From: an uncultured Clostridia bacterium
GTDB lineage: Bacteria > Acidobacteriota > Blastocatellia > UBA7656
Direction: 5' to 3'
Length of the DNA: 64,000 nt
NCBI GenBank assembly: GCA_964548075.1
Contig: CAZJQQ010000004.1
Span: forward strand, 115,872-179,871
Within the stretch, counting starts at the first letter, position 1. Each line of letters opens with the position of its first letter. Under the pieces are notes generated by a model. The model made no database searches, had not been told where the DNA came from, and saw nothing but the letters and a program-made list of their open reading frames with translations. This document shows, one piece after another, positions 15,982 to 62,219 of this stretch. The translations under genes and the position numbers were made by a program.

Positions 15982-18096
15982 TTGAGAAACAAAAAATTCA
16001 CAGCCAGCGCGGCTCTTGCTCTGGTGATGGCACTAGCAGGTGCCGCGAACGTGGAATCGGCCTCGGGAGCCGGTTTCAGGGCTCAAGAAAATTCGCAGTC
16101 AGCGAGCGCCGACAAACGCGCCGACGCGCTGAAGAAGTACCTCGAGGCAAAGCGGCTAGACGAGGCGGGCAACTATCCCGGCGCGGTCGCTGCGTACAAG
16201 GAGGCACTGGCGTTGGACCCGCAGTCCGTCGAGCTGAGAACGGCGCTCGGTTCGTTATTCCTGAAAAACCGCAACGTCATCGACGCCGAGGCCCAGGCGA
16301 AAGAGGCGATGAAGCTGGCACCCGATAGCATCGACGTGCGCAAGCTGCTGGCTCGCATCTATATTTCCCAGACCTTCGTTGGCACAACTCTGGTCAAAGA
16401 GAAGGCTCGCGCCGCGATAAAGGAGCTCGAGGAGATTGCTCGTCTCAGCCCGAACGCCAAGATCGAGGTGGGCGATCAGGAACAGGCTGTTCTGGCGATC
16501 ATCGGCGAGATGTACTGGACGCTCGACGAACAGGACAAGGCGCTCGACGCATTTAAGCGCGTTTCCGAGGGCAGCTCGACGGCCGATCGCGCGCACTATC
16601 AACTCGCGCAGCTCTACTCTCAGAAAAACAAGTTCCGCGAAGCCGCCACCGCGGCGCGCAAGGCTTATGACATTGATCCCAAGTCGCCTGCGTACGCGGG
16701 ACTGCTCGCCAGATCGCTGCTGCGCATCGGGCGCACGCAAGAAGCGTTGGATATTTACAAGAAAGCTATCGGGATCAAGGAAGTCGCGAGCAAGGACCCC
16801 AAGAAACCCGCCGAAACCGCGACGTCCGGGGACAAGGATGATGAAGAGACAGGGGTGCTCATCAACTCTCCGCTGCTGCTCGACTACTTGGAAGCGTTGG
16901 TGTACTCGGGCCGCTACGACGAAGCAAACAAGCGGCTTGATCCGTTGATCAAGGTCGTCCGCAAAGACACCCCTGCCTATTTGAATTTGATCAGGGTGAA
17001 GGGGGACGTGTTGAGGAGAACCGGCAAGCGCGAAGAGGCTGTGCAGTTGTTCGAAACCGCGCTCAAGGGACAGGACGTGTCCGACAGCCTGCAGGTCGTG
17101 TACGCGCTCGCGGAGACCTACGAAGAGATGCTCCAGTTTGATAAGGCGGTCTCAACGTATGAAGATGCGCTCACGTCGATCGTCAACCCTGATGGAACTG
17201 TGGGCGCGCGTGAAGGGGAGAAGCAAGCCGCCGAGGTCGTGCTTCAGCGAATAGCTCTCGCGTACCGCGTGGCCGGTAAACGCGACAAGGCGATGGAAAC
17301 CTTCGAGCGCATGAAAAAAGTCGTGGGCAAGGATCGGCCGCGCGCCGACCAGCTCATCGTGGACACATTGATCAACGAGGGCAAATACAAAGAGGCGCTC
17401 GCCGCTGCGACCGATGCCGCCGCGCGATTCCCTGACGAGCGCTCGTTCAAGCTCTATCGCGCGCAGTCCGCCGGCCGTCTCGGCGACGTGGCAACGGCTG
17501 ACGCGACGCTGAAGTCGTTGCTGAAGGACGGGCCCGAGGACGCTGACGTATACCTGTTCTGGTCAAGCGTGCAGCTCGAGGCTAACCAGGTGAAGGAAGC
17601 TGAAGAGAGCGCGCGCAAGGCCGTCGCGCTCGAGCCGAATGACGTCGGTCCGCTGGTTACTCTGGCGAGCGTGCAGGACAGAGAGAAAAAGTACAAAGAA
17701 TCTGAAGCCACCTTAAGGAAGGCGCTCGAGATTGACCCGGACAACGCCACGGTGTTGAACAACCTCGGCTACTTTCTTGCGGACCGGAACGAGCGGCTGG
17801 CTGAAGCGGAAGCGCTGATACGACGAGCGGTGAACATCGAGCCTACGAACGGGTCGTTCCTGGATTCGCTCGGATGGCTGCTGTACAGACAGGGCAAGCT
17901 CGCGGAAGCGCAAAAGTATTTGGAGCAAGCGGTCATCTATCAACAGCGTTCAAGTACGATCCACGATCATCTTGGCGATCTGTACAAGAAACAGGGACAG
18001 ATGGATAAGGCTCGCGCGAAGTGGGAAGACGCGCTGAGGCTCGCGACCGAGCCGGATGAGATAAAGAAGATCAAGGAGAAGCTGGGGAAGAAGTAG
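15982..18096 (+). CDS. Tetratricopeptide-repeat (TPR) protein, secreted
   Basis: TTG start with AGGGAG SD. Signal peptide [29 protein letters not shown]. Many TPR-like units ([33 protein letters not shown], ...). Confidence 0.85.
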
Positions 18097-18352
18097 AAGG
18101 CGGAAGGCAGAAGGCAGAAAGCAGAAGGCAGAAAGCGGAAGGCAGAAAGCAGAAGGCAGAAAGCGGAAGGCAGAAAGCAGAAGGCAGAAGGCAGAAAGCA
18201 GAAGGCAGAAGGCAGAAGGCAGAAGGCAGAAGGCAGAAGGCAGAGGTGAGAATATCTTGAGTTCCACGTATATCAAAAACCGTCAAACGACTGCCTTCTG
18301 CTTTCTGCCTTCTGCCTTCTGCCTTCTGCTTTCTGCCTTCTGCCTTCTGCCG
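18097..18352. repeat. Long simple-repeat hairpin: about 21 (GAAGGCA/GAAAGCG) units, about 45-nt loop, about 9 inverted (CTGCCTTCTG/CTTTCTG) units
   Basis: Begins at the TPR stop codon. Its inverted arm lies inside the 5' end of the next ORF. The same unit recurs after tRNA-Gln at 21039..21097. Confidence 0.8.
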
Positions 18353-18928
18353 TGGACGACTGAGCGTGTTTACTCGCAAGAAAAGGGCTCGGGAGTCGCC
18401 GGCGGCGGGCGAGTGGCCCGTGGAAAAAATGACAGTGCTCACGCTGCGAAGCCACGGGACTCGCGGCCCGATCCCGCCGCCTCGGTGGAGAACGAGTCGA
18501 GTGAGCGCGCTTCAAACCGGAGCATTCGCGAGATTGAATCCCTCGAGCAGCAGTGCCTGGATGAAGTTAACCGTGTGCGCCGGCGCAACCGGCTTCCTCA
18601 ACTCAGCATTTATGAAGAGCTGCTGCCGGTGGCTCGCGACTACAGCCGGCGAATGGCCGAACAGAATTTCTTCTCGCACAACGATCCCGAAGGGCGCACC
18701 GTTCGCGAGCGAGTGGAAGAGGCGGACATCAGATGGCGAATGGTGGGTGAGAACCTGGCTTATTCGAACGGCTACGTCAACCCGGTCGCGGCGAGCCTTC
18801 ACGGCTGGATGGATAGCCCGGGCCATCGCCGAAACATCCTCGATCCGGATTTCAGATTGACTGCGGTGGGCGTATGGATCAAGCCGGACGGAACGGTTTA
18901 CTTCACCGAGATTTTTCTCAAGCAGTGA
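18257..18928 (+). CDS. CAP/SCP (YkwD-like) domain protein
   Basis: [49 protein letters not shown]...GENLAY...[24 protein letters not shown] is the CAP domain signature. The only in-frame start is TTG at 18257, with AGGTGA 7 nt upstream. That would make the hydrophobic N-terminus [20 protein letters not shown] the signal peptide, encoded by the repeat arm. Start uncertain. Confidence 0.65.
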
Positions 18929-18980
18929 CATCCAAGAGTATTCTGCAATCTGAAACCCACGGATTGTGTGGGGAGAATCT

Positions 18981-20955: not shown

Positions 20956-21030
<75 letters not shown>

Positions 21031-34600: not shown

Positions 34601-37600
34601 ACCCGCAGGAATGCACGGTGAGGTCGGCTGCCGATCCGGTTCAATGCCGCTTCGAAACTAAAGAAGGCGGGCAGTATCGTGTGACCGCGACGATACAGGA
34701 CGACCGCGAACGCAAGAACGAAAGCGAGCTGACGCTGTGGGTCGCCGGCGGAAAGGTCGTACCGAAGCGAGACATCGAGCAGGAAGACGCTCAGATGATT
34801 CCCGATCGCAAGGAATACCGAGCGGGTGACACAGCAGAGATCCTTGTGCAAGCGCCGTTCTATCCGGCGGAAGGGGTGTTGACGCTGCGGCGTTCAGGCA
34901 TCGTGAGCACCGAGCGATTTGCGATGGACGGCCCGTCGCACACGTTGCGCATTCCGATCGAGGAAGGCTACACGCCGAACCTTCACGTGCAGGTTGATCT
35001 CGTGGGCGCGGCAATGCGCACCGACAACGAGGGCAAGCCTGCCGAGAAACTGCCTAAGCGTCCCGCGTTCGCAAAGGGAGAATTGAATCTGCAGATACCG
35101 CCGCTTGCGCGAGAGCTTGCGGTCGAGGCGAAGCCTCGCGACAAGACTCTCGAGCCGGGCGGCGAGACGACGGTTGACGTTGAAGTGCGAGACGCAGCAG
35201 GCAAGCCCGTCGCCGGAAGCGAGCTCGCGGTTGTTGTCGTTGATGAAGCGGTGCTTGCCTTGACCGGCTATCGCATCGGCGATCCGATCTCGACGTTCTA
35301 CGCTCAGCGCCGCCCCGAGGTGACCGATCACCATTCACGCGATGATGTTCTGCTTGCGGCCCCCGAAGACCTAGCGGAGAAGCTGCAACGGACGGGTTTC
35401 AACACGGGCGGCGGGGAGCCAAGGCTTGGTGGTGACGCCGCGGCACCTATGAGGGCGATGGCACCGCCAAAAAACGGGCGAGAGTTCCAAAAGGCTGAGC
35501 TTTTAGCGGAGTTGCAGCAAGACCAAATTCGTATGCGCCAAAACTTCGACGCGCTTGCAACATTCGCGCCTGTCGTGCCGACCGATGCTAACGGGCGCGC
35601 GAGCGTCAAAGTAAAACTCCCCGACAGTCTGACTCGCTATCGAGTGATGGCTATCGCGGTCGCCGGCGGCAAGCAGTTCGGCGCGAATGAATCAAACATA
35701 ACCGCCCGCCTCCCGTTGATGGTGCGTCCCTCCGCGCCGCGATTCCTTAACTTCGGCGACACTTTCGAGCTGCCCATCGTCGTGCAAAACCAAACGGACT
35801 CGCCGATGGATGTCGATGTCGCAGTCCGAGCCGGCAACGCCGAACTGACAGCAGGCGCCGGCCGCCGCGTGACTGTCCCGGCCAACGATCGAGTCGAAGT
35901 GCGTTTTCCAGTCTCAGCCTCGCGAGCGGGGTCTGCGCGGTTTCAAATCGCGGGCGTGTCGGGCAAGTGGGCCGACGCCGCCGAAATCGAATTGCCCGTG
36001 TGGACTCCGGCGACGACCGAAGCGTTTGCGACTTACGGCGAGATCGACGAAGGCGCGATCGCGCAACCGGTCAAAGCGCCGAGCGATGCGATCAGACAAT
36101 TCGGCGGACTCGAAATCTCGACATCATCAACCGAGCTTCAAGCACTGACCGACGGCGTGATCTATCTCGTAGCTTATCCGTTCGAGTGCTCGGAGCAACT
36201 GTCATCGAGAGTGCTGGCCGTCGCAGCGTTGAAAGACGTGCTTGCGGCTTTCAAGGCAAAGGGGCTGCCTGAGCCGAAAGAGATGATCGAGGCCGTCGCC
36301 CGGGACATCAAGCGGTTGGAGTCGCGTCAAAGCGACGACGGCGGCTTTGGGTTCTGGCGGCGAGGCGATCAGGCGTGGCCTTACGTGAGTATCCATGTGG
36401 CCCACGCGCTTCAGCGAGCGAAGGATAAAGGCTTCGAGGTTCCGGCTTCGATGCTCGACCGCTCAAAGAAGTACCTGCGCGAGATCGAGCGGCACATACC
36501 CAATCATTACGGTCCGTATGCCCGCCGCGCGCTTGTCGCCTATTCGCTCTACGTGCGAAACCTGATGGGCGACAAGGACTCAGCGAAGGCTCGGCGTTTG
36601 ATTGCCGAAGCGGGGCTCGAAGGCGTGTCGCTTGAAGCAATCGGCTGGCTGCTGTCGGTGCTGTCGGGCGATCCGGCTTCGCAGACTGACCTTGCCGCCA
36701 TCCGCAAACATCTTAACAACCGAGCCACGGAAGAGGCTGCCACAGCCCATTTCGTGACTTCGTACAAAGACGACGATTATCTGCTGATGCACTCGGATCG
36801 CCGCGCCGATGGGGTCATCCTCGAAGCTTTGATCAAAGACCAGCCGGCCAGCGACTTGATTCCCAAGGTCGTGCGCGGCCTGCTCGCGCATCGCAAACAA
36901 GGCAGATGGGAGAACACGCAGGAGAACGCTTTCGTGCTGCTCGCGCTTGATAAGTACTTTTCGACTTATGAAAAGGTCACACCGGACTTCGTCGCGCGCG
37001 CGTGGCTCGGGGAAGCTTACGCGGGCGGACACGAGTTCCGCGGGCGCACGACCGAGCGTCACAACGTAAATGTCCCGATGCGGGCGCTTGCTGAAACTGC
37101 GGCGTCGCAGAATCTAATCCTGAGCAAGGAGGGCCCGGGCCGGTTGTACTATCGCGTTGGTATGCAATACGCACCCGCGAGCCTCAAGCTCGATCCTTCA
37201 GAGCACGGCTTCACAGTCGAGCGCGTGTACGAAGCAGTTGACAAGGCTGACGACGTGCGTCGCGACCCGGACGGAAGCTGGCACATCAAAGCCGGCGCGC
37301 GTGTGCGAGTGAAGCTGACTATGCTCGTCGCGACGCGCCGATATCACGTCGCGCTGGTTGATCCGATACCGGCGGGGCTTGAAGCGTTGAACCCGGCGCT
37401 CGCGGTCACGGGCAGCGTCCCGCAAGACCCGAACGACAAGACGACTGATCGCTGGTGGTGGTGGCGACGGCCATGGTTCGAGCACCAGAACATGCGTGAC
37501 GAACGCGTCGAAGCGTTTGCGTCTTTGGTGTGGGAAGGCGTTCACACCTACTCCTACGTAGCTCGCGCGACGACTCCGGGAGTGTTCGTCGTCCCGCCAA

Positions 37601-37671
37601 CGAAAGCCGAAGAGATGTACCACCCCGAGACCTTCGGCCGCAGCGGAACTGATAGGGTGATTGTTGAGTGA
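31609..37671 (+). CDS. Bacterial alpha-2-macroglobulin family protein (2020 aa)
   Basis: Signal peptide followed by large MG-like beta-sandwich arrays. Thioester motif in YPFECSEQLSSRVLAV (C-x-E-Q). Confidence 0.8.
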   Translation: MSPRFRIALCTLLALLQSLGLFTAQIATGQTRRVSTARAQGGDVKTGLQLRLSEGTAVVLNQPVASTAPAARLSEDDAQNVLKRLQPLKAELSDEQDIALRDRSLPPPRAGKTITDSFPPAAKLDAPDKLAMGPLEVLRYSPEGDVPLVPQLSVTFSQPMVAVTSHQDTLAAGVPVKLTPQPPGHWRWVGTKTLLFETEGHFPMATEYTAEIPAGVKSATGAILAATKSWKFTTPPPVVKSSYPNDGPTVRDPLMFVEFDQRVSPASVVGTIRVRSGNREWKTRLATSAEVAADDAVSKLAARATKDRWLAFRVVDPANETSRAPLPAGSSINVSIGPGTPSLEGPRRTAAPQSFAFRTYGPLHVTQHRCGYREQCSPFDQWTVQFTNPIDASAFEQSQVRVEEISAAGKKPQTVSLKSAIYGNTLSISGIKPGRTSYRVTLDPAMRDQFGQALGETTPIVFNVGSAPAALAGPDKQFVVLDPAAPPRFSVYSINHNSLRVRLYSVGPEHWSQFLAYMRNRDDRTPRTPPGRLALSKDVNVAAKPDEMAETRIDLTPVLDAGVGQVFVVVEPAVPTARRYRDSVAVWAQVTQIGLDAFVDSSELIGWATSLKDGGPIDGARLSIEVAHAASLRTDAAATTRTDGTANLALKDTASEGARILVARKGRDVAILPETAYWNDRSGWVRRDRGDSLRWFVFDDRKMYRPGEEVHVKGWIRRVGDAKGGDVNPLDAGAAKVEYVVKDSRGNDVLKGEARINALGGFDTAFKLPATMNLGYAQLHLEAFANLPSSNREYSHRFQVQEFRRPEFEVTSQASEGPHFVGSSATTTVNAAYYAGGGLSNAEVTWRVTTSTARFTPPNRDDFTFGKWIPWWIDRSSYTERKVETFNGRTDAAGKHTLRMDFTSVDPPQPSTVTAEASVTDVNRQAWTASANLLVHPADLYVGMRSPRTFVQKGEPLIVQSIVADLDGKLIAGREIKIRAVLMDWVFEKGEWKQQETNPQECTVRSAADPVQCRFETKEGGQYRVTATIQDDRERKNESELTLWVAGGKVVPKRDIEQEDAQMIPDRKEYRAGDTAEILVQAPFYPAEGVLTLRRSGIVSTERFAMDGPSHTLRIPIEEGYTPNLHVQVDLVGAAMRTDNEGKPAEKLPKRPAFAKGELNLQIPPLARELAVEAKPRDKTLEPGGETTVDVEVRDAAGKPVAGSELAVVVVDEAVLALTGYRIGDPISTFYAQRRPEVTDHHSRDDVLLAAPEDLAEKLQRTGFNTGGGEPRLGGDAAAPMRAMAPPKNGREFQKAELLAELQQDQIRMRQNFDALATFAPVVPTDANGRASVKVKLPDSLTRYRVMAIAVAGGKQFGANESNITARLPLMVRPSAPRFLNFGDTFELPIVVQNQTDSPMDVDVAVRAGNAELTAGAGRRVTVPANDRVEVRFPVSASRAGSARFQIAGVSGKWADAAEIELPVWTPATTEAFATYGEIDEGAIAQPVKAPSDAIRQFGGLEISTSSTELQALTDGVIYLVAYPFECSEQLSSRVLAVAALKDVLAAFKAKGLPEPKEMIEAVARDIKRLESRQSDDGGFGFWRRGDQAWPYVSIHVAHALQRAKDKGFEVPASMLDRSKKYLREIERHIPNHYGPYARRALVAYSLYVRNLMGDKDSAKARRLIAEAGLEGVSLEAIGWLLSVLSGDPASQTDLAAIRKHLNNRATEEAATAHFVTSYKDDDYLLMHSDRRADGVILEALIKDQPASDLIPKVVRGLLAHRKQGRWENTQENAFVLLALDKYFSTYEKVTPDFVARAWLGEAYAGGHEFRGRTTERHNVNVPMRALAETAASQNLILSKEGPGRLYYRVGMQYAPASLKLDPSEHGFTVERVYEAVDKADDVRRDPDGSWHIKAGARVRVKLTMLVATRRYHVALVDPIPAGLEALNPALAVTGSVPQDPNDKTTDRWWWWRRPWFEHQNMRDERVEAFASLVWEGVHTYSYVARATTPGVFVVPPTKAEEMYHPETFGRSGTDRVIVE

Positions 37672-37804
37672 CGGCAAGAAGAGAACGTCGGAGATTCTTA
37701 ATCAACTGGCAAGCGTCTCGTTGTCCTAACAAACTTGGCTAGAGAATTGCGCGGCGAGGGTGGTCTTGCTCAGCTTGCCCTGTGTTTGGCAAAAGAGATA
37801 ACAA

Positions 37805-38872
37805 ATGCCTGTGAGTTCTGCACCCGGATCTGGCCGTCAGCGGGATGTCGACGAGATCGTTATGTATGAAAGAGCGGCTGAAGTTGGTCGCCTTCTCTTA
37901 GGTGACCTTAAAGGACCTATGCAGTGGATCTATTACGACCAGTATCTCGGCAAGCCCAGAAAAGAGTTGCAAGCTCGAAAGCATTCGATACGCGCTTACC
38001 TTGGAACTGAGATAGGAAAGTTCTGCCGGAGGAATTTCGAGGATGTGAAGCCCAGGGATCTCGCCCGCTTATATGAGCCGCTTTACGCGCGCGGTAGTGT
38101 CTGGCGGCTTCCTCTGAGCGACTTCATTGAAGAGCTTGGGGTGCCCAAGGAAGGCGTACTCAGAGGAGCGCCGCTTCATGCAACCGTCTCTATCTCGTAT
38201 CTATGGGGGTTACAAACAGAATACCCAGAAATGCACCTAGTTAGAGACCTGGCGCTTTCGCTCAATGCGGTTGTCGCTGCCGAAAGGGAGTTGGAGGAAT
38301 ATGAGCGAATCCCGAAGAGTGAGGCCAAACTCAAGCAGGCCGAACTCGCCGCGCTACAGGGTCACAGTGCTTTCAACAAAAGGATGTGCATTCTCTCCTG
38401 CTTCAACTTGGTAGAGGCCTACGTAAATGGGCTAGCTTGGGAATATGTTCACACCCATGACATCTCACTTGTCTCAAAGGGTGACCAAGAGGCACTCACG
38501 GAAAAAGACAAGAACGGCAAAGATAGACTCGTAAACATAATCGATAAACTCGTAAAGATTCCGAGAATCGTAGCTCACCAGCAATATGGTCCGTTAGACA
38601 AGATGCGCGAGCCCCTGAAAACCTTCATCGAAACTGTTAAGCCATACCGCGACTCTATCGTTCATGCATCTCCATTTTCTGCTCCAGAGAACTTTGGTGA
38701 TTATGACAAACTCTCAAAATTGTATGAGCTCAGTTTGGATACCGTTAAAAAGGCGGTGAGCAATACACTGGCTATCATTAGTCAGATTCACCAATTCACT
38801 GGAGCAAACAACAATCTGCCGGAATGGGTTTACGCTCAGAACGACGACGGGTCATTTGACATGGCGTCTTAA
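37805..38872 (+). CDS. Hypothetical protein on a low-GC islet; possible HEPN-like nuclease domain (R-x4-H motif RDSIVH)
   Basis: About 50% GC against about 62% in the flanks. C-terminal helical region ...MCILSCFNLVEAYVNGLAWEYVH...YRDSIVHASPF. Alternative start ATG at 37919 has a better SD (AAGGA). No confident family assignment. Confidence 0.5.
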   Translation: MPVSSAPGSGRQRDVDEIVMYERAAEVGRLLLGDLKGPMQWIYYDQYLGKPRKELQARKHSIRAYLGTEIGKFCRRNFEDVKPRDLARLYEPLYARGSVWRLPLSDFIEELGVPKEGVLRGAPLHATVSISYLWGLQTEYPEMHLVRDLALSLNAVVAAERELEEYERIPKSEAKLKQAELAALQGHSAFNKRMCILSCFNLVEAYVNGLAWEYVHTHDISLVSKGDQEALTEKDKNGKDRLVNIIDKLVKIPRIVAHQQYGPLDKMREPLKTFIETVKPYRDSIVHASPFSAPENFGDYDKLSKLYELSLDTVKKAVSNTLAIISQIHQFTGANNNLPEWVYAQNDDGSFDMAS

Positions 38873-38900
38873 TCGTCACGTAGCGGAATACCACTAAGAG

Positions 38901-39194
38901 TTAGATAACCTCGTCGAACCGGGGCACTCTGAACAGGACGATGTCCGGATAGCCGTTTGCCTCAGCATTGAGCTTAACCTCATACGCATCGTTGCCGCTG
39001 CCAACGATCGTTTGGCTGCGCTCTAGAATGGCCACCCACTTGTCTTCGTACTGGCCTAGCTGTTCTTGGAGTGGGCCTAGAAGTTCCATAAACCATCTCG
39101 CGCTTTTCTCAGTCTGGGTGATGCCTGGATGGTTCCATTCCAGGAGGAGATTGTCAATTGAGGGCCGCAAACGCGGCACCTTTTCCATTTGCAA
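38901..39194 (-). CDS. Hypothetical small protein
   Basis: ...KWVAILERSQTIVGSGNDAYEVKLNAEANGYPDIVLFRVP.... Low-GC islet. Alternative start MELLGP at 39089. Divergent from the 39216 gene, with only 21 bp between them. Confidence 0.35.
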   Translation of the reverse strand: MQMEKVPRLRPSIDNLLLEWNHPGITQTEKSARWFMELLGPLQEQLGQYEDKWVAILERSQTIVGSGNDAYEVKLNAEANGYPDIVLFRVPRFDEVI

Positions 39195-39215
39195 ACAGGT
39201 TGTACGTGATATATT

Positions 39216-39545
39216 TTGCGAACCATGTCCAGCACTAAACGATATACGAGACTTCTGGACTTTGATATGCGAGAACAGGTTCGTTTCTCGACGGACGGCA
39301 ACGACGTACTAGAATTCGTCGTTCAACTAGAAATCAAGATCGATGACTCTTGGGCTTGGATTCGGCGCTATGACACAATGAATGGGGTTGCTCATCTTGA
39401 CGTCAAGTACGGCGATGGAACTATTGACAAGCACCGAGCAATGAACCTACCGTTCAAAGAGGCTTTCACCGTGGCGCTCGCTGAAATAGGATCCAACTGG
39501 CAGAAGCATCGCACTTGGTATTTGGAGGGGAGACGAAAGCGATGA
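39216..39545 (+). CDS. Hypothetical small protein (first gene of a coupled pair)
   Basis: ...WAWIRRYDTMNGVAHLDVKYGDGTIDKHRAMNLPFKEAF.... Low GC. Its stop overlaps the next start as ATGA. Confidence 0.4.
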   Translation: MRTMSSTKRYTRLLDFDMREQVRFSTDGNDVLEFVVQLEIKIDDSWAWIRRYDTMNGVAHLDVKYGDGTIDKHRAMNLPFKEAFTVALAEIGSNWQKHRTWYLEGRRKR

Positions 39546-39889
39546 AATGGTGGCGCAGATTTCTCTTTACCAAACACTCGGCACGCAGTGAATCGGAGTT
39601 CGTAAGCCTAAATGCTACGCTCAGCGCCCAATTCAACGCTTTCGTCGTGGCCCACTTGCAGTGGGCCGCTGACGTTCTTCCCGACAATGCGGCGATCCTG
39701 GTTGAAGTGGACGGAGATCAAGAATTCAATGAATGGTCGCGCAAGTTAGTGCATTCCTCCGTCGAGCCGGGGCAGTCAATATTCCCCGTTCTCTTTCGCC
39801 GGCTCCCGCACGATGCCAGTCATATGGAGATTCACCCACGTATCCTCGAACGACGTTCCGAAAGAATCATGGCTGATCTAGCCTTCTAG
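39542..39889 (+). CDS. Hypothetical small protein (second gene of a coupled pair)
   Basis: MKWWRRFLFTKHSARSESEFVSLNATLSAQFNAFVVAHLQW.... ATGA-coupled to 39216..39545. Confidence 0.4.
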   Translation: MKWWRRFLFTKHSARSESEFVSLNATLSAQFNAFVVAHLQWAADVLPDNAAILVEVDGDQEFNEWSRKLVHSSVEPGQSIFPVLFRRLPHDASHMEIHPRILERRSERIMADLAF

Positions 39890-39910
39890 TGGGCCTACAA
39901 CTGAGCCCAC

Positions 39911-40849
39911 TCAAATCACGAGATGGCCTCGCTTATCGGCAATCGTGATCGTTGCTTGAGTTCCAGAGTTGAATGCAACAAAGTCGCTTTCGATTCCGTC
40001 GCTGAAGATCACTCCAACCTCGGGCGTCTGCGAGATCAGCTTCAACGGCCGCGCACTGGTGATCTTGCCAAACACCAGCGTCGCCGAAGACGTCTTGCTC
40101 GGGAACGGTTCCCGCACAGTGTAGTAGAGATAATCCGAGTCCCACGCGAATCCGCCCGGCGGTTCAACCTTGACTCTGCCGCCTGAGGCTTCGCTTGCGA
40201 CTTTCGCGGCGCCGGTCATCAAGCTTCTAAACCAACCGGTCGAACCCAGACCAGTCGATACGATGATTCCGCTCGATGAGTGTTGCTCGCTCTTCTCGCC
40301 GACGCTGATCGTGTACCGCGCCGAGACGTGCGAGCGAACGCCGATGAACAGATCGTTCACCGCGTAGAGCTTCTGGCCGTCGTTCAACTCGGCTTTGGCC
40401 ATTGTCACTTCTTTGATCGGGCGCCGGTGAGCGAAGACTTCGGGCAGGATCGTTTCGAGATCGTCAACCGCGAACGGAAGCAGCACTCCTTCCCAGCGCG
40501 CGGTGTCGGGATTGACGCCGACCACTTGCTGAGTCGTCGTGTACTTGACCGTGTTCGCGACCAGCCCGTCCTGGCCGAGCACCACTACCGTGTCGTCATT
40601 GCCGAAGATGAAATTCGGAAGAAACGATCTATCAAGCACGTGAAGCCGGCCGATACGTTCGAGCGTCGCAACCGCTCCGGAGACCGACGCGCGGTATTGT
40701 TCGTGCTCGTGAAGGTAATCGGAGAAATCGGCGCCCAGGTGTTCGACGTAGAACTTTGCCTGACTGACCGTGTTGAAGCGCGCGACCAGATCATCGAGCC
40801 GCGTGTGGCGCGTGACCAGAACGACTTTGTTCTCGGTCAACCGATTCAT
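39911..40849 (-). CDS. ATP-NAD kinase-like (NAD kinase/diacylglycerol-kinase fold) family protein
   Basis: VVVLGQDGLVANT is a degenerate GGDGT. ...GVNPDT..., ...AVNDLFI... and ...STGLGSTGWFRSLMTGA... match the NADK fold pattern but diverge from canonical NadK. Downstream of the SPFH gene in the same operon. Confidence 0.55.
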   Translation of the reverse strand: MNRLTENKVVLVTRHTRLDDLVARFNTVSQAKFYVEHLGADFSDYLHEHEQYRASVSGAVATLERIGRLHVLDRSFLPNFIFGNDDTVVVLGQDGLVANTVKYTTTQQVVGVNPDTARWEGVLLPFAVDDLETILPEVFAHRRPIKEVTMAKAELNDGQKLYAVNDLFIGVRSHVSARYTISVGEKSEQHSSSGIIVSTGLGSTGWFRSLMTGAAKVASEASGGRVKVEPPGGFAWDSDYLYYTVREPFPSKTSSATLVFGKITSARPLKLISQTPEVGVIFSDGIESDFVAFNSGTQATITIADKRGHLVI

Positions 40850-40865
40850 GATTTCACTTGAGCGC

Positions 40866-41888
40866 TCACTTGTTGGAATTGAGCGTGAGCAGCTCGCGGA
40901 GCAGATCAGGTGAGATGTTCAACTGGCCGATCTTGTCCGCGCGTTCGGCGAGGCCCTGGAACGCGAGCGCGACCAATTGATCGGGTTGCATGCCGACGCT
41001 TGCTAGCGCTTGCAGCACCTTTGAGTCGACGCCTTCGAGCGCCTTCATCGTAGCCGCAACGCCGTATGCTTTCGCGTCGGATTCGGCCTTCGTGTTCTCG
41101 GTGGAAAGCGTGACCAGTTGTTTGTTCTTTTCTTCGAGCGCGATGTTGGATTCCATCTCGGCGTCGCGAAGCTGGTGTTGCTTCTCCTGCACGGCGCGCT
41201 CGGCGTCCATCTGCGCTTCGCGAATCTGGCGCTTCTTGTTCTCGACGGCGATCTCGGTGTTCAACTCGTTCTCTCGAATCGCGCGCTCCTGTTCAACTGC
41301 GGAGTTGCGCCGCGCGTAGATCGCTTCGTCGGCCTCGCGAAGCAGTTGTTCGCGGGCTTCGGCCTCCAGCGCTCGGCCCGTTTCGGGATTGGGTTTGATC
41401 GCCAGGATCGAGAGACCGAGCACCTCGAGACCGAGCGATGATATTTCAGTTGAAGCCGCGAGGCCCTTCGTGACCTCCCGAACAAGCGCGTCGGATGCTC
41501 GTAGCGCGTCCCGAAGCGCGAGCGTCTGAAGCTCTTTGCGAGTGAGCACCTTGATCACGTTGATGACTCGCGCCGAGAGCTTTTGCGGATCATCCGAGAC
41601 GTAGGTGCGCGCCGACGCATCGAGTGTGAAGTTCAAGAGCTGAGACACTCGTTTCGGGTCGGTTATTCGGTAGGTGGCCTGGCCTTGAATGCTGATCTCC
41701 TGAAAGTCCGAGGTGACCTCGTTGAATATGAACGGCGCGTCGGTGCTTGCGATGGGCACGGCGACAAGCGAGGTCGTCGGCGCGTAGTAGAAGAATGAAA
41801 GGCCGGCGCCCTCACGAACGATCCGGCCTTTCTTGTACTGAAGCAGGTAGCTCGTAGGCTGCATCTTTATGAATCGGAGTCCCAGCAT
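40866..41888 (-). CDS. SPFH/Band-7 (flotillin/stomatin-like) domain protein
   Basis: Start MLGLRFIKMQPTSYLL with AAAGGAGGG SD. SPFH core then a long coiled-coil: EAEAREQLLREADEAIYARRNSAVEQERAIRENELNTEIAVENKKRQIREAQ.... Confidence 0.85.
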   Translation of the reverse strand: MLGLRFIKMQPTSYLLQYKKGRIVREGAGLSFFYYAPTTSLVAVPIASTDAPFIFNEVTSDFQEISIQGQATYRITDPKRVSQLLNFTLDASARTYVSDDPQKLSARVINVIKVLTRKELQTLALRDALRASDALVREVTKGLAASTEISSLGLEVLGLSILAIKPNPETGRALEAEAREQLLREADEAIYARRNSAVEQERAIRENELNTEIAVENKKRQIREAQMDAERAVQEKQHQLRDAEMESNIALEEKNKQLVTLSTENTKAESDAKAYGVAATMKALEGVDSKVLQALASVGMQPDQLVALAFQGLAERADKIGQLNISPDLLRELLTLNSNK

Positions 41889-42022
41889 TCGACCCTCCTT
41901 TTCAAACACAAAGACGTTTCAACCACAAAGACACGAAGCCATAAAGCAAGCCCCTCAGATGTGCGCGTTGTGTTCGTGTATTGTGTCTTATAGTCTTCGT
42001 GTCTTTGTGTTCAGCCCTTCAC

Positions 42023-61485: not shown

Positions 61486-61628
61486 TATGCTACCGCTCTT
61501 GTCGAAGTAACCGCCGTGGCCAAGCCAAACGCGTCACCAGCAGCCGTACTCCCATTTGAGATCGTTTGTCCCGGTGGTGGCCTTGACGATAGGCTTGGGA
61601 CGGTCGAGCACGATTGAACGCGGCGGTG

Positions 61629-62219
61629 TTATTTGCTGGCGATTTCGCTACTAAGCAGATGAGAATACCTCGCCCAGCTTGTTGGCTTGAGCCAATCCAG
61701 GCCGTCTTGGACTTTGGTTATCTTCTTGGTTATCGGGTCGTAAAGGTACATGCCACCTCTGGTAATCGTGAACATCGGCACGCCAAACTTGTCCGCTATC
61801 AAAAGATCCGGCCCCTGGGGCTCCGGATTGGACTTATTCGGATGAGTGTGAACTATTGCGATAATGGCCTGGTTCCATTCAAAAGTGAATCGGTAGGCTT
61901 CATTCGTATGCCCTCCCGGAACTGCTTTGATGGAGCCATCGGGCATGCGAAAGATCAATACAAGGGCCTCGATCAATCGGATTCCGTGCTCTGATTTGTC
62001 CCAGGCGCGCTCGAATTCCCGCACGACTTGCTCATCAATTCTGGAGACCACAAAGCTGGCCCGGCTTCGTCTCATAGCGTGGTTTTGGTCTGTGGCAATC
62101 TGAGCGGCGTCATCCCTATTGTTCTCCCGGCCGGTAACGGAGTTAGACGTTTGGGCGTCGGAGATTGGTGCTGTAACGATCAGGAAAAAAACAACCAGAG
62201 AGAAGCGGTACATAGACAC
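61629..62219 (-). CDS. Hypothetical secreted protein with HxHP...P...D (JAB/RadC-like?) motif
   Basis: Signal peptide MSMYRFSLVVFFLIVTAPISDAQ. Motif AIIAIVHTHPNKSNPEPQGPDL. No confident family. Lower GC. Confidence 0.45.
   Translation of the reverse strand: MSMYRFSLVVFFLIVTAPISDAQTSNSVTGRENNRDDAAQIATDQNHAMRRSRASFVVSRIDEQVVREFERAWDKSEHGIRLIEALVLIFRMPDGSIKAVPGGHTNEAYRFTFEWNQAIIAIVHTHPNKSNPEPQGPDLLIADKFGVPMFTITRGGMYLYDPITKKITKVQDGLDWLKPTSWARYSHLLSSEIASK

What the first reader, a model, noticed from the sequence alone, without database searches (positions are those of the whole stretch)
37700..39910. Low-GC islet with a candidate HEPN-motif protein and translationally coupled small unknown genes
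About 2.2 kb at roughly 50% GC is wedged between the A2M gene and the SPFH/NADK-like operon. It holds:
- a 355-aa protein whose helical C-terminus carries an R-x4-H motif (YRDSIVH), a HEPN-like RNase signature seen in abortive-infection and toxin proteins
- a small divergent gene (62-97 aa)
- two ATGA-coupled genes of 109 and 116 aa with no recognisable family

The composition and gene sizes look like a horizontally acquired toxin/immunity or Abi-type module.
Basis: inference. Interest (0 to 1): 0.6.

Follow-up and report, generated by a model that had tools for sequence, protein, structure and literature searches.

The report
Variable islet with solo HEPN gene
The low-GC stretch is a real, strain-variable accessory islet in a soil Acidobacteriota genome, carrying a stand-alone predicted HEPN RNase of an undescribed family beside three unrelated small genes; it is interesting but not a surprise.

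Summary
Bases 37673-39899 fill the whole spacer between the A2M and NADK-like stop codons. It is the lowest-GC 2.2 kb of the window (0.50 against 0.585).

The segment is accessory:
- Close relatives have an empty site.
- Others carry a methylase plus HNH pair, a DnaJ-PilZ gene, or a pP_pnuc_1 nuclease there.

The 355-aa protein matches no Pfam, NCBIfam or PADLOC model, but the HEPN idea is supported:
- E204, R282 and H287 are the only invariant residues across 49 distant relatives.
- R-D-x3-H sits at the end of helix 3, where HEPN active sites lie.

The four-gene toxin/immunity reading is not supported:
- About 30 loci from many phyla encode this protein alone, without any of the three small genes.
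- The small genes belong to Pfam families DUF5678, DUF7718 and DUF5647.
- The ATGA-coupled DUF7718-DUF5647 pair, or DUF5647 alone, sits at this locus in relatives that lack the HEPN gene.

Most likely the HEPN protein is a self-contained RNase effector, abortive-infection or toxin-like, parked in a cargo-swapping hotspot. Activity and role are inferred, not shown.

The parts
37673..39899 (.). Strain-variable low-GC accessory segment that fills the whole spacer between the A2M stop and the NADK-like stop
   Evidence: Homology to the empty-site relative L025 stops at 37672 and resumes at 39900. GC is 0.504, the minimum of the window. No flanking repeats, tRNA or integrase were found.
37805..38872 (+). 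Gene for a 355-aa stand-alone HEPN-domain protein of an undescribed family
   Evidence: No Pfam, NCBIfam or PADLOC hit. 252 homologues of about 348 aa and 571 cluster representatives. AF2 pLDDT 89.8. dN/dS is 0.13 against the L100 copy.
37805..38224 (+). N-terminal alpha/beta domain (residues 1-140) of unknown fold; candidate sensor or regulatory domain
   Evidence: Secondary structure of the model. Conserved P123, H125, W134 and G135. No PDB or Pfam match. Distant relatives keep the HEPN half with undetectably similar N-terminal halves.
38225..38797 (+). HEPN domain (residues about 141-331): helices 141-167 and 178-217, an insert at 218-270, then helices 271-288 and 311-331
38414..38416 (+). 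Codon of E204, the invariant acidic residue in the CFNLxEAYxNG helix (putative HEPN helix 2)
   Evidence: Invariant in A1 and A2. A conserved acidic residue in helix 2 is described for HEPN domains.
38645..38665 (+). YRDSIVH: the R282-D283-x3-H287 predicted RNase active-site motif at the C-terminal end of helix 271-288
   Evidence: R282 and H287 are invariant and D283 and K279 at least 90% conserved over 49 sequences of 18-43% identity. The position matches 'end of helix-3'.
38901..39194 (-). Small DUF5678 gene, convergent with the HEPN gene and divergent from DUF7718. The start is uncertain: TTG 39194, ATG 39188 or ATG 39089.
   Evidence: PF18929, E 1.5e-5, 25.2 bits against a cut-off of 23.2. 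Conserved in L100 with dN/dS 0.2-0.3. Absent from all other HEPN-family loci.
39188..39215 (+). Promoter-like site TTTGCA-16-TATATT, with TG before the -10 element, just upstream of the DUF7718 ATG
   Evidence: Consensus scan. This is a pattern match only: 3 sites were found in the region against 1.8 expected.
39225..39545 (+). DUF7718 gene (106 aa from the ATG; the ORF from TTG 39216 gives 109 aa)
39542..39889 (+). DUF5647 gene (115 aa), overlapping DUF7718 by ATGA, with GGAGG 13 nt upstream
   Evidence: PF18882, E 3.3e-9. Sequence read directly. It is the most persistent gene of the locus in relatives, with or without DUF7718.

Best explanation
The 2.2-kb segment is a mosaic accessory islet in a cargo-swapping hotspot at the 3' end of the A2M gene of a soil Acidobacteriota lineage. 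It is not one four-gene module. It has two independently varying pieces.

Piece 1 (about 37673-39113/39187) carries a stand-alone 355-aa protein of an undescribed family and a convergent small DUF5678 gene.
- Shown: residues about 141-331 of the protein form a HEPN four-helix domain, with invariant E204 and R282-D-x3-H287.
- Shown: the gene travels alone between phyla.
- Inferred from what is established for HEPN families: the protein dimerises through the HEPN domain. It then acts as a metal-independent endoribonuclease that leaves 2',3'-cyclic phosphate ends.
- Inferred: its own 140-residue N-terminal domain, not a separate antitoxin, keeps it silent until a trigger such as phage infection. 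RNA cleavage then arrests growth. That would make it a single-gene abortive-infection or toxin-type effector.

Piece 2 (39188-39899) is an ATGA-coupled DUF7718-DUF5647 operon that is resident at this locus in many relatives.
- Its function is unknown.
- A toxin (DUF7718) and antitoxin (DUF5647) pair is the best guess, but a weak one.
For: Variable hotspot
- L025 and L027 have 91-95% identical flanking proteins. In them the two stop codons lie only about 130-300 bp apart.
- The same site holds an Eco57I/MmeI-like N6-methylase plus HNH endonuclease in L024, L026 and L099.
- It holds a DnaJ-PilZ gene in L086 and L052 and a pP_pnuc_1 nuclease in L094.
- L095 carries DUF7718-DUF5647 only. L096 and L097 carry DUF5647 with DUF7718 truncated or absent.
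- The islet is the GC minimum of the window.
- Synonymous divergence from relatives is far lower inside the islet than in adjacent A2M: 0.15 against 0.54, and 0.05 against 0.73.

HEPN assignment
- The AF2 model has pLDDT 89.8 and pTM 0.84.
- E204, R282 and H287 are the only invariant residues among 49 distant members.
[quoted passage not shown] An acidic residue sits in the preceding long helix. This is how the superfamily is defined.
- Distant members give weak hits to NTase_sub_bind, HEPN_RiboL-PSP, HEPN_Apea, AbiU2 and MAE_28990.

Solo and mobile
- No neighbour is conserved in the 23 genome loci clustered, no family recurs in more than two of the neighbours of 18 of them, and none of the three small proteins has a homologue in 25 loci.
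- The gene has lower GC than its flanks in 16 of 18 genomes.
- It lies beside HicAB and MNT/HEPN toxin-antitoxin pairs in L104 and L105. In L108 it lies near a Rep_1 replication-initiator gene and two integrase genes.
- It is under purifying selection, dN/dS 0.13.
Against: - No RNase activity, toxicity or phage phenotype has been tested.
- No curated HEPN, Abi or defence model reaches threshold, and hhalign against two single HEPN sequences found nothing.
- The role of the N-terminal domain is pure inference, because I could not inspect the model's coordinates.
- Association with defence genes is anecdotal, not a measured enrichment.
- The family is nearly absent from viral contigs, phages and plasmids.
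- DUF5678 sits in the same piece as the HEPN gene in both copies seen (window and L100). A local partnership cannot be fully excluded.
- For DUF7718-DUF5647, the preferential loss of DUF7718 can be explained by its position next to the variable slot.
Confidence: 0.55

Rival explanations
1. One reading: the four genes form one horizontally acquired toxin/immunity or Abi module. The HEPN protein is the toxin, and one or more of the small proteins neutralise it.
For: - All four genes lie in one low-GC segment.
- The same HEPN, DUF5678 and DUF7718 order recurs at 91% nucleotide identity in L100.
- Many HEPN toxins do have small partners. This rests on established knowledge, for example HepT-MntA (listing).
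Against: - None of the three small proteins has a homologue in 25 loci that encode the HEPN family.
- No conserved neighbour of any kind was found.
- DUF7718-DUF5647, or DUF5647 alone, occurs at this locus without the HEPN gene. In L094 the pair sits next to a different nuclease.
- DUF5678 is convergent with the HEPN gene, so the two are not co-transcribed.
- L100 is a close relative and therefore not independent evidence.
Confidence: 0.1
2. The 355-aa protein is a HEPN-fold protein with a non-conflict role, such as RNA processing or turnover, or nucleotide or ligand binding. The islet is then ordinary accessory DNA.
For: - Some HEPN families are housekeeping or non-catalytic (PMC3710099).
- No defence model matches.
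- The family is almost absent from phages and plasmids.
- Several neighbours are metabolic genes.
Against: - The catalytic R, H and E residues are the most conserved positions of the family.
- Distribution is patchy across at least ten phylum-level groups, with 45-58% identity that does not track taxonomy.
- The gene is compositionally foreign in 16 of 18 genomes.
- It is absent from 91-95% identical relatives.
- It sits beside toxin-antitoxin pairs or near replication-initiator and integrase genes in three of the four annotated contexts.
Confidence: 0.2
3. DUF7718-DUF5647 is an independent type II-like toxin-antitoxin addiction pair. The upstream gene would be the toxin and the downstream gene the antitoxin. 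This would explain why it persists at the locus.
For: - Two small genes overlap by 4 bp, with a strong Shine-Dalgarno sequence for the second.
- Both are under purifying selection.
- The losses are asymmetric. DUF7718 is truncated or absent with DUF5647 intact in L071, L096, L097 and L098, and the reverse was never seen.
- dN/dS of DUF5647 rises to 0.42-0.50 in two loci that lack DUF7718.
Against: - No match to any known toxin or antitoxin family, PADLOC model or solved structure.
- The DUF7718 model is of low confidence and its fold hits are generic.
- All examples are syntenic close relatives, so co-occurrence is not independent evidence.
- DUF7718 lies next to the variable slot, so positional deletion bias explains the asymmetry.
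- L097 lacks DUF7718 yet shows dN/dS of 0.19.
Confidence: 0.3
4. The low GC is a local compositional quirk of a long intergenic or regulatory region, or of spurious ORFs, rather than acquired genes.
For: - No integrase, tRNA or flanking repeats mark the segment.
Against: - All four ORFs have homologues and dN/dS of 0.1-0.3.
- Three of them match Pfam families.
- Empty and alternatively filled sites exist in close relatives.
Confidence: 0.02

Closest known systems
HEPN superfamily RNase toxins (HepT/SO_3166 of HEPN-MNT systems; PDB 5yep, 7ae2, 8xdj)
   Same: - Four-helix HEPN core.
- R-x4-H at the end of helix 3 with a polar residue after R.
   Different: - About 8-12% sequence identity, and no Pfam HepT or HEPN hit.
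- 355 aa with an extra 140-residue N-terminal domain, against about 130 aa.
- No adjacent MNT nucleotidyltransferase here or in the homologue loci clustered. Where an MNT-HepT pair is nearby (L105), it is a separate complete pair.
Single-protein HEPN abortive-infection and defence effectors (AbiU2, AbiV, AbiA C-terminal HEPN, ApeA/HEPN_Apea, RiboL-PSP-HEPN)
   Same: - Stand-alone gene combining a HEPN domain with another domain.
- Accessory, patchy distribution.
- Distant family members give weak hits to HEPN_RiboL-PSP (5e-4), HEPN_Apea, AbiU2 and MAE_28990.
   Different: - All those hits are below the curated thresholds and occur in only 1-2 of 49 members.
- The window protein itself hits none of them.
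- The N-terminal domain is unrelated to anything found.
- No phage phenotype is known.
Defence or variable-gene hotspots between conserved core genes (for example the hotspots of phages and satellites, PMC9122126, title seen)
   Same: A fixed pair of conserved flanks (A2M on one side, NADK-like or serC on the other) holds alternative cargo. The cargo includes nuclease and methylase genes in different strains, and empty sites also exist.
   Different: - The hotspot is chromosomal, with no integrase, att repeats or tRNA.
- The cargo is not exclusively defence-like (DnaJ-PilZ, DUF genes).
- Enrichment for defence genes was not measured.
Pfam DUF5678, DUF7718 and DUF5647
   Same: The three small proteins pass the curated Pfam thresholds.
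   Different: These are families of unknown function. No paper mentions them in a relevant context. None has a solved structure detectable by sequence.

Membership tests
HEPN superfamily | [quoted passage not shown] | tested here: met
   [not shown]
HEPN superfamily | [quoted passage not shown] | tested here: met
   R282-x4-H287 closes helix 271-288 and is followed by a loop. R and H are invariant in 49 distant members. The definition is taken from PMC3710099.
HEPN superfamily | Polar residue (N, D or H) immediately after the conserved R | tested here: met
   D283 is invariant in A1 and at least 90% conserved in A2.
HEPN superfamily | Conserved acidic residue in helix 2, positioned near the motif | tested here: inconclusive
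   E204 is invariant and lies in the long helix 178-217, which precedes the insert. The context is E-x3-N, not the typical E-x3-[KR].
HEPN superfamily | Significant match to a curated HEPN sequence model | tested here: not met
   The window protein has no Pfam, NCBIfam or PADLOC hit at E <= 1. Only sub-threshold hits appear, in a few distant members. hhalign against two single HEPN sequences was negative.
HEPN superfamily | Metal-independent RNase activity dependent on R and H | not testable with these tools
   Needs biochemistry.
HEPN-MNT (HepT-MntA) toxin-antitoxin | Adjacent minimal nucleotidyltransferase antitoxin gene | tested here: not met
   No nucleotidyltransferase gene lies in the islet, and none recurs next to the homologues.
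Type II toxin-antitoxin module (the four genes as one unit) | Toxin and partner conserved as neighbours across independent genomes | tested here: not met
   Zero of 25 HEPN-family loci encode a homologue of any of the three small proteins.
Type II toxin-antitoxin module (DUF7718-DUF5647) | Co-transcribed pair conserved across independent genomes, with a recognisable toxin or antitoxin fold | tested here: inconclusive
   The pair, with its 4-bp overlap, is conserved in L094 and L095, but these are syntenic relatives. The searches reached only homologues of 66% identity or more. No fold could be assigned.
Known anti-phage defence systems (PADLOC-DB v2) | Match to a system's protein models | tested here: not met
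   No hit at E <= 1 for any of the four proteins, nor for the SPFH and NADK-like proteins.
Genomic island acquired by site-specific integration | Integrase, tRNA or other att site, and flanking direct repeats | tested here: not met
   The only tRNA lies at 20956. No convincing flanking repeats were found, and there is no integrase ORF in the islet.
Strain-variable accessory region (hotspot) | Presence, absence and alternative cargo between the same conserved flanks in close relatives; atypical composition | tested here: met

The most novel reading that the evidence does not exclude
The 355-aa family (about 570 clusters at 50% identity, with no Pfam, NCBIfam or PADLOC model) is a new single-gene anti-phage abortive-infection system. 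A previously undescribed N-terminal sensor domain would gate a HEPN RNase. The A2M-to-serC interval of these soil Acidobacteriota would be a chromosomal defence hotspot that swaps RM-like, nuclease and HEPN cargo without any integrase.
Probability: 0.35. Interest if true: 0.55.

Novelty: new variant of a known kind. Interest (0 to 1): 0.42.

Why it matters
If the prediction holds, this adds an uncatalogued HEPN family with a new accessory domain to the set of single-protein RNase effectors. It comes from phyla that are barely sampled for immunity: Acidobacteriota, Planctomycetota, Chloroflexota and Desulfobacterota. It also gives a concrete, easily tracked hotspot (A2M 3' end to serC) for mining accessory and defence cargo in soil Acidobacteriota.

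The finding also carries a caution. Small genes packed beside a HEPN gene are not necessarily its partners. Here, comparison with relatives separates the islet into independent pieces.

Tried and rejected
- Pfam, NCBIfam, PADLOC and PHROGs scans of the 355-aa protein: nothing usable.
- Profile search against PDB sequences: only insignificant FIS hits, E about 0.7.
- hhalign of the family profile against single HepT and NTase_sub_bind sequences from neighbouring loci: no alignment.
- Foldseek against viral structures (BFVD): no hit with E <= 0.001.
- The afdb50 library was unavailable, so the N-terminal domain stays unassigned.
- tblastn of the 355-aa protein against plasmids and phages, and of the DUF7718 and DUF5647 proteins against plasmids: no match.
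- IMG/VR scan: only 2 loci.
- Homologue searches for DUF7718 and DUF5647 reached only close relatives (8 and 22 hits). Pair conservation in distant taxa could therefore not be tested.
- PDB sequence searches for the three small proteins: nothing credible.
- Literature searches for the DUF names and accessions, and for SPFH plus NAD kinase in defence: nothing relevant.
- Search for att-like repeats, tRNA, Rfam RNAs and terminators in or around the islet: nothing significant.
- Frameshifted HEPN copies (L014, L015, L018) were considered as evidence of decay. I rejected this because all three come from long-read MFD MAGs, where frameshifts may be sequencing errors.
Full report
**1. Observation**

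The features described are all present.
- GC in 400-nt windows drops to 0.44-0.54 between about 37.6 and 39.8 kb, against about 0.60 on either side.
- The segment 37673-39899 has GC 0.504. It is the lowest-GC 2.2-kb stretch of the whole window (mean 0.585, z = -3.6).
- GC3 of its genes is 0.53-0.64, against 0.69-0.75 for A2M, NADK-like, SPFH and serC.

The ORFs are as follows.

| Coordinates | Strand | Length | Note |
|---|---|---|---|
| 37805-38872 | + | 355 aa | YRDSIVH at residues 281-287 |
| 38901-39194 | - | 97, 95 or 62 aa | depends on the start codon |
| 39216/39225-39545 | + | 109 or 106 aa | depends on the start codon |
| 39542-39889 | + | 115 aa | ATGA overlap, GGAGG 13 nt upstream |

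One correction is needed. The three small proteins are not family-less. They pass the Pfam thresholds for DUF5678, DUF7718 and DUF5647. None of the four proteins matches NCBIfam, PADLOC or PHROGs.

**2. The segment is a strain-variable insertion site**

I fetched 70 metagenomic loci through the NADK-like protein and compared them with the window.
- **Empty sites.** In L025 and L027 the flanking proteins are 91-95% identical to the window's. The A2M and NADK-like stop codons lie only about 130-300 bp apart.
- **Boundaries.** Nucleotide homology to the window stops at 37672 and resumes at 39900. The islet is therefore exactly the inter-stop spacer.
- **Other cargo.**
  - L024, L026 and L099 carry a 913-aa Eco57I/MmeI-like N6-methylase plus an HNH endonuclease.
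  - L086, L052 and L099 carry a DnaJ-PilZ protein.
- **Relatives found through the small proteins.**
  - L094 has A2M, a pP_pnuc_1 nuclease, DUF7718, DUF5647 and serC.
  - L095 has A2M, DUF7718 and DUF5647.
  - L097 has A2M, DUF5647 and serC.
  - L096 and L071 have DUF5647 plus a DUF7718 remnant, with the identical junction 37672|39424.
- **Same arrangement.** Only L100, a 2.2-kb contig at 91% nucleotide identity, repeats the window's arrangement.
- **Piece boundary.** Relative to L095 the window has an extra 37673-39187. Relative to L094, the stretch 37670-39113 is replaced.

The islet therefore has at least two pieces: HEPN plus DUF5678, and DUF7718 plus DUF5647.
- No tRNA, integrase or flanking repeats mark it.
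- Synonymous divergence from relatives is much lower in the islet genes than in the adjacent A2M gene. HEPN shows 0.15 against 0.54 in L100, and DUF5647 shows 0.05 against 0.73 in L071.
- This suggests that the cargo was exchanged more recently than the flanks diverged.
- All four genes show dN/dS of 0.1-0.3, so they are real genes.

The host is an Acidobacteriota bacterium. This follows from L101, an Acidobacteriota MAG with 83-85% nucleotide identity in the shared parts.

**3. The 355-aa protein**

*Family*
- It belongs to a compact family of about 348-aa proteins: 252 hits and 571 representatives at 50% identity. None carries a Pfam domain.
- In 30 members, KPxRDxxVHASPF and CFNLxEAxxNG are invariant.
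- In 49 members of 18-43% identity, the only invariant residues are E204, R282 and H287. K279, D283, R193, P123, E142 and D148 are at least 90% conserved.

*Structure*
- The AlphaFold model is confident, with pLDDT 89.8 and pTM 0.84.
  - YutE
  - TTHA0636
- The reference survey of the superfamily (PMC3710099) lists four features:
  - the R-x4-6-H motif lies at the end of helix 3;
  - a polar N, D or H residue follows the R;
  - a conserved acidic residue lies in helix 2;
  - an insert is frequent between helices 2 and 3.
- The model fits each point:
  - R282-D-x3-H287 closes helix 271-288;
  - E204 lies in helix 178-217;
  - residues 218-270 form a helical insert.
- Distant members give weak, sub-threshold hits to several HEPN Pfam families.

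I therefore accept the HEPN assignment at about 0.85-0.9 probability. No curated sequence model reaches threshold, and I could not inspect the 3D proximity of the residues. Residues 1-140 form a conserved alpha/beta domain with no detectable relative.

**4. It is a solo, mobile gene**

- Twenty-three genome loci were found. They span these groups:
  - Alphaproteobacteria
  - Desulfobacteraceae
  - Acidobacteriaceae
  - Herpetosiphonaceae
  - Scalindua
  - Methylomirabilis
  - Isosphaeraceae
  - Pirellulales
  - Sumerlaeota
  - Hydrogenedentota
  - others
- Identities of 45-58% do not track taxonomy.
- Clustering of all neighbouring ORFs in these loci found no conserved neighbour.
- Sensitive phmmer searches of the 23 genome loci and two viral-contig loci found no homologue of any of the three small proteins.
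- Pfam and PADLOC scans of 124 neighbouring ORFs from 18 loci found no family in more than two of them. The list did include Uma2, IS200 transposase, integrase, PIN, SoFic and MTase hits.
- The gene has lower GC than its flanks in 16 of 18 genomes, by 6 points on average and up to 17.
- Annotated contexts:
  - in Syntrophus gentianae it sits beside HicB/HicA and NTase_sub_bind/MNT pairs;
  - in an Anaerolineae MAG it sits beside MNT-HepT;
  - in L108 it lies near a Rep_1 replication-initiator gene, an excisionase-like HTH gene and two integrase genes;
  - one context is uninformative.
- It is nearly absent from IMG/VR (2 loci) and absent from the GenBank phage and PLSDB plasmid collections.
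- Several distant relatives keep only the HEPN half, with an N-terminal half that is not detectably similar. That pattern is expected if the N-terminal domain is a swappable sensor or specificity module. This is inference.

**5. Mechanism proposed**

*Shown:* the fold, the motif, its conservation, the solo state and the accessory, foreign status.

*Inferred from established HEPN biology:*
- The domain dimerises to build a composite, metal-independent RNase site from R282, D283, H287 and E204.
- It cleaves cellular or phage RNA, leaving 2',3'-cyclic phosphate ends.

*Inferred by analogy with single-protein HEPN Abi and ApeA-type effectors:*
- The N-terminal domain keeps the enzyme off until a trigger appears.
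- The RNA damage then arrests growth.

My estimates are about 0.7 that it is an active RNase and about 0.5 that its role is defence or a toxin.

**6. The small genes**

*DUF7718-DUF5647*
- The pair is an ATGA-coupled operon with a promoter-like site just upstream.
- It is the resident element of the locus. DUF5647 is the most persistent gene.
- DUF7718 is truncated or absent in four relatives while DUF5647 stays intact, and never the reverse.
- That pattern, together with a higher DUF5647 dN/dS in two such loci, is compatible with a toxin-then-antitoxin pair.
- However, DUF7718 lies next to the variable slot, so deletion bias explains the asymmetry equally well.
- No fold or family evidence supports a toxin. 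I give this reading about 0.3.

*DUF5678*
- It is a real small gene of unknown role.
- It travels with the HEPN piece in the two copies seen, but it is convergent with the HEPN gene and absent from every other HEPN-family locus.

**7. Comparison and verdict**

- The protein works like a HEPN RNase effector and meets the structural and motif criteria of the superfamily.
- It is not a member of any curated HEPN family, of HEPN-MNT, or of any PADLOC system.
- The islet behaves like a variable hotspot, but it lacks the marks of site-specific integration.
The four-gene toxin/immunity module is not.
- The finding is a new variant of a known kind: an undescribed HEPN family with a new N-terminal domain, in a cargo-swapping site.
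- Interest is moderate, because HEPN genes in variable islets are common and no function has been demonstrated.

Noticed in passing
window 39911-41909 (-), and loci L024-L093: The SPFH (Band_7) plus NADK-like two-gene operon next to the islet is itself accessory. It is missing in relatives L094, L095, L097, L098 and L101, where DUF5647 is followed directly by serC. Even so, the two genes are kept as neighbours in most of 70 metagenome loci, down to about 37-50% identity. It has no PADLOC hit, and no paper links the pair.
   Followed up: partly
window 37673-39899 compared with 36172-37668; loci L100, L071, L096: Synonymous divergence from relatives is several-fold lower in the islet genes than in the adjacent A2M 3' end (0.05-0.30 against 0.54-0.73). 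This suggests recent exchange of the cargo between lineages whose core genes had already diverged.
   Followed up: partly
L071 2116-2118 and L096 5881-5883 (window junction 37672|39424): Two contigs from different samples share exactly the same deletion junction. It joins the A2M stop to the middle of DUF7718 (residue about 68-70) and leaves DUF5647 intact.
   Followed up: no
L099 1913-7734: One relative stacks several of the alternative cargos in a single spacer. The order is A2M, N6-methylase, HNH, decayed DUF7718 and DUF5647, DnaJ-PilZ, then NADK-like and SPFH. The site therefore accumulates cassettes rather than only swapping them.
   Followed up: no
L094 5095-5832: Where the window has HEPN plus DUF5678, this relative has a 245-aa pP_pnuc_1 (predicted pPIWI-associated nuclease) gene. 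No Argonaute or PIWI gene is visible among the called neighbours.
   Followed up: no
L014, L015, L018 (HEPN-family matches): The HEPN-family matches in these loci are split over two or three reading frames. All three come from long-read MFD MAGs, so the breaks may be sequencing errors rather than pseudogenes.
   Followed up: no
window 39210-39227: The -10-like TATATT ends only 9 nt before the DUF7718 ATG, and no Shine-Dalgarno sequence is visible. The first gene of the pair may therefore be translated from a leaderless or very short-leader mRNA. The second gene has a strong GGAGG.
   Followed up: no
window about 17850-18950 and 61550-61750: Two further mild GC dips (about 0.54 in 2.2-kb windows) lie elsewhere in the window. 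Only ORF lists were inspected, and nothing was annotated.
   Followed up: no
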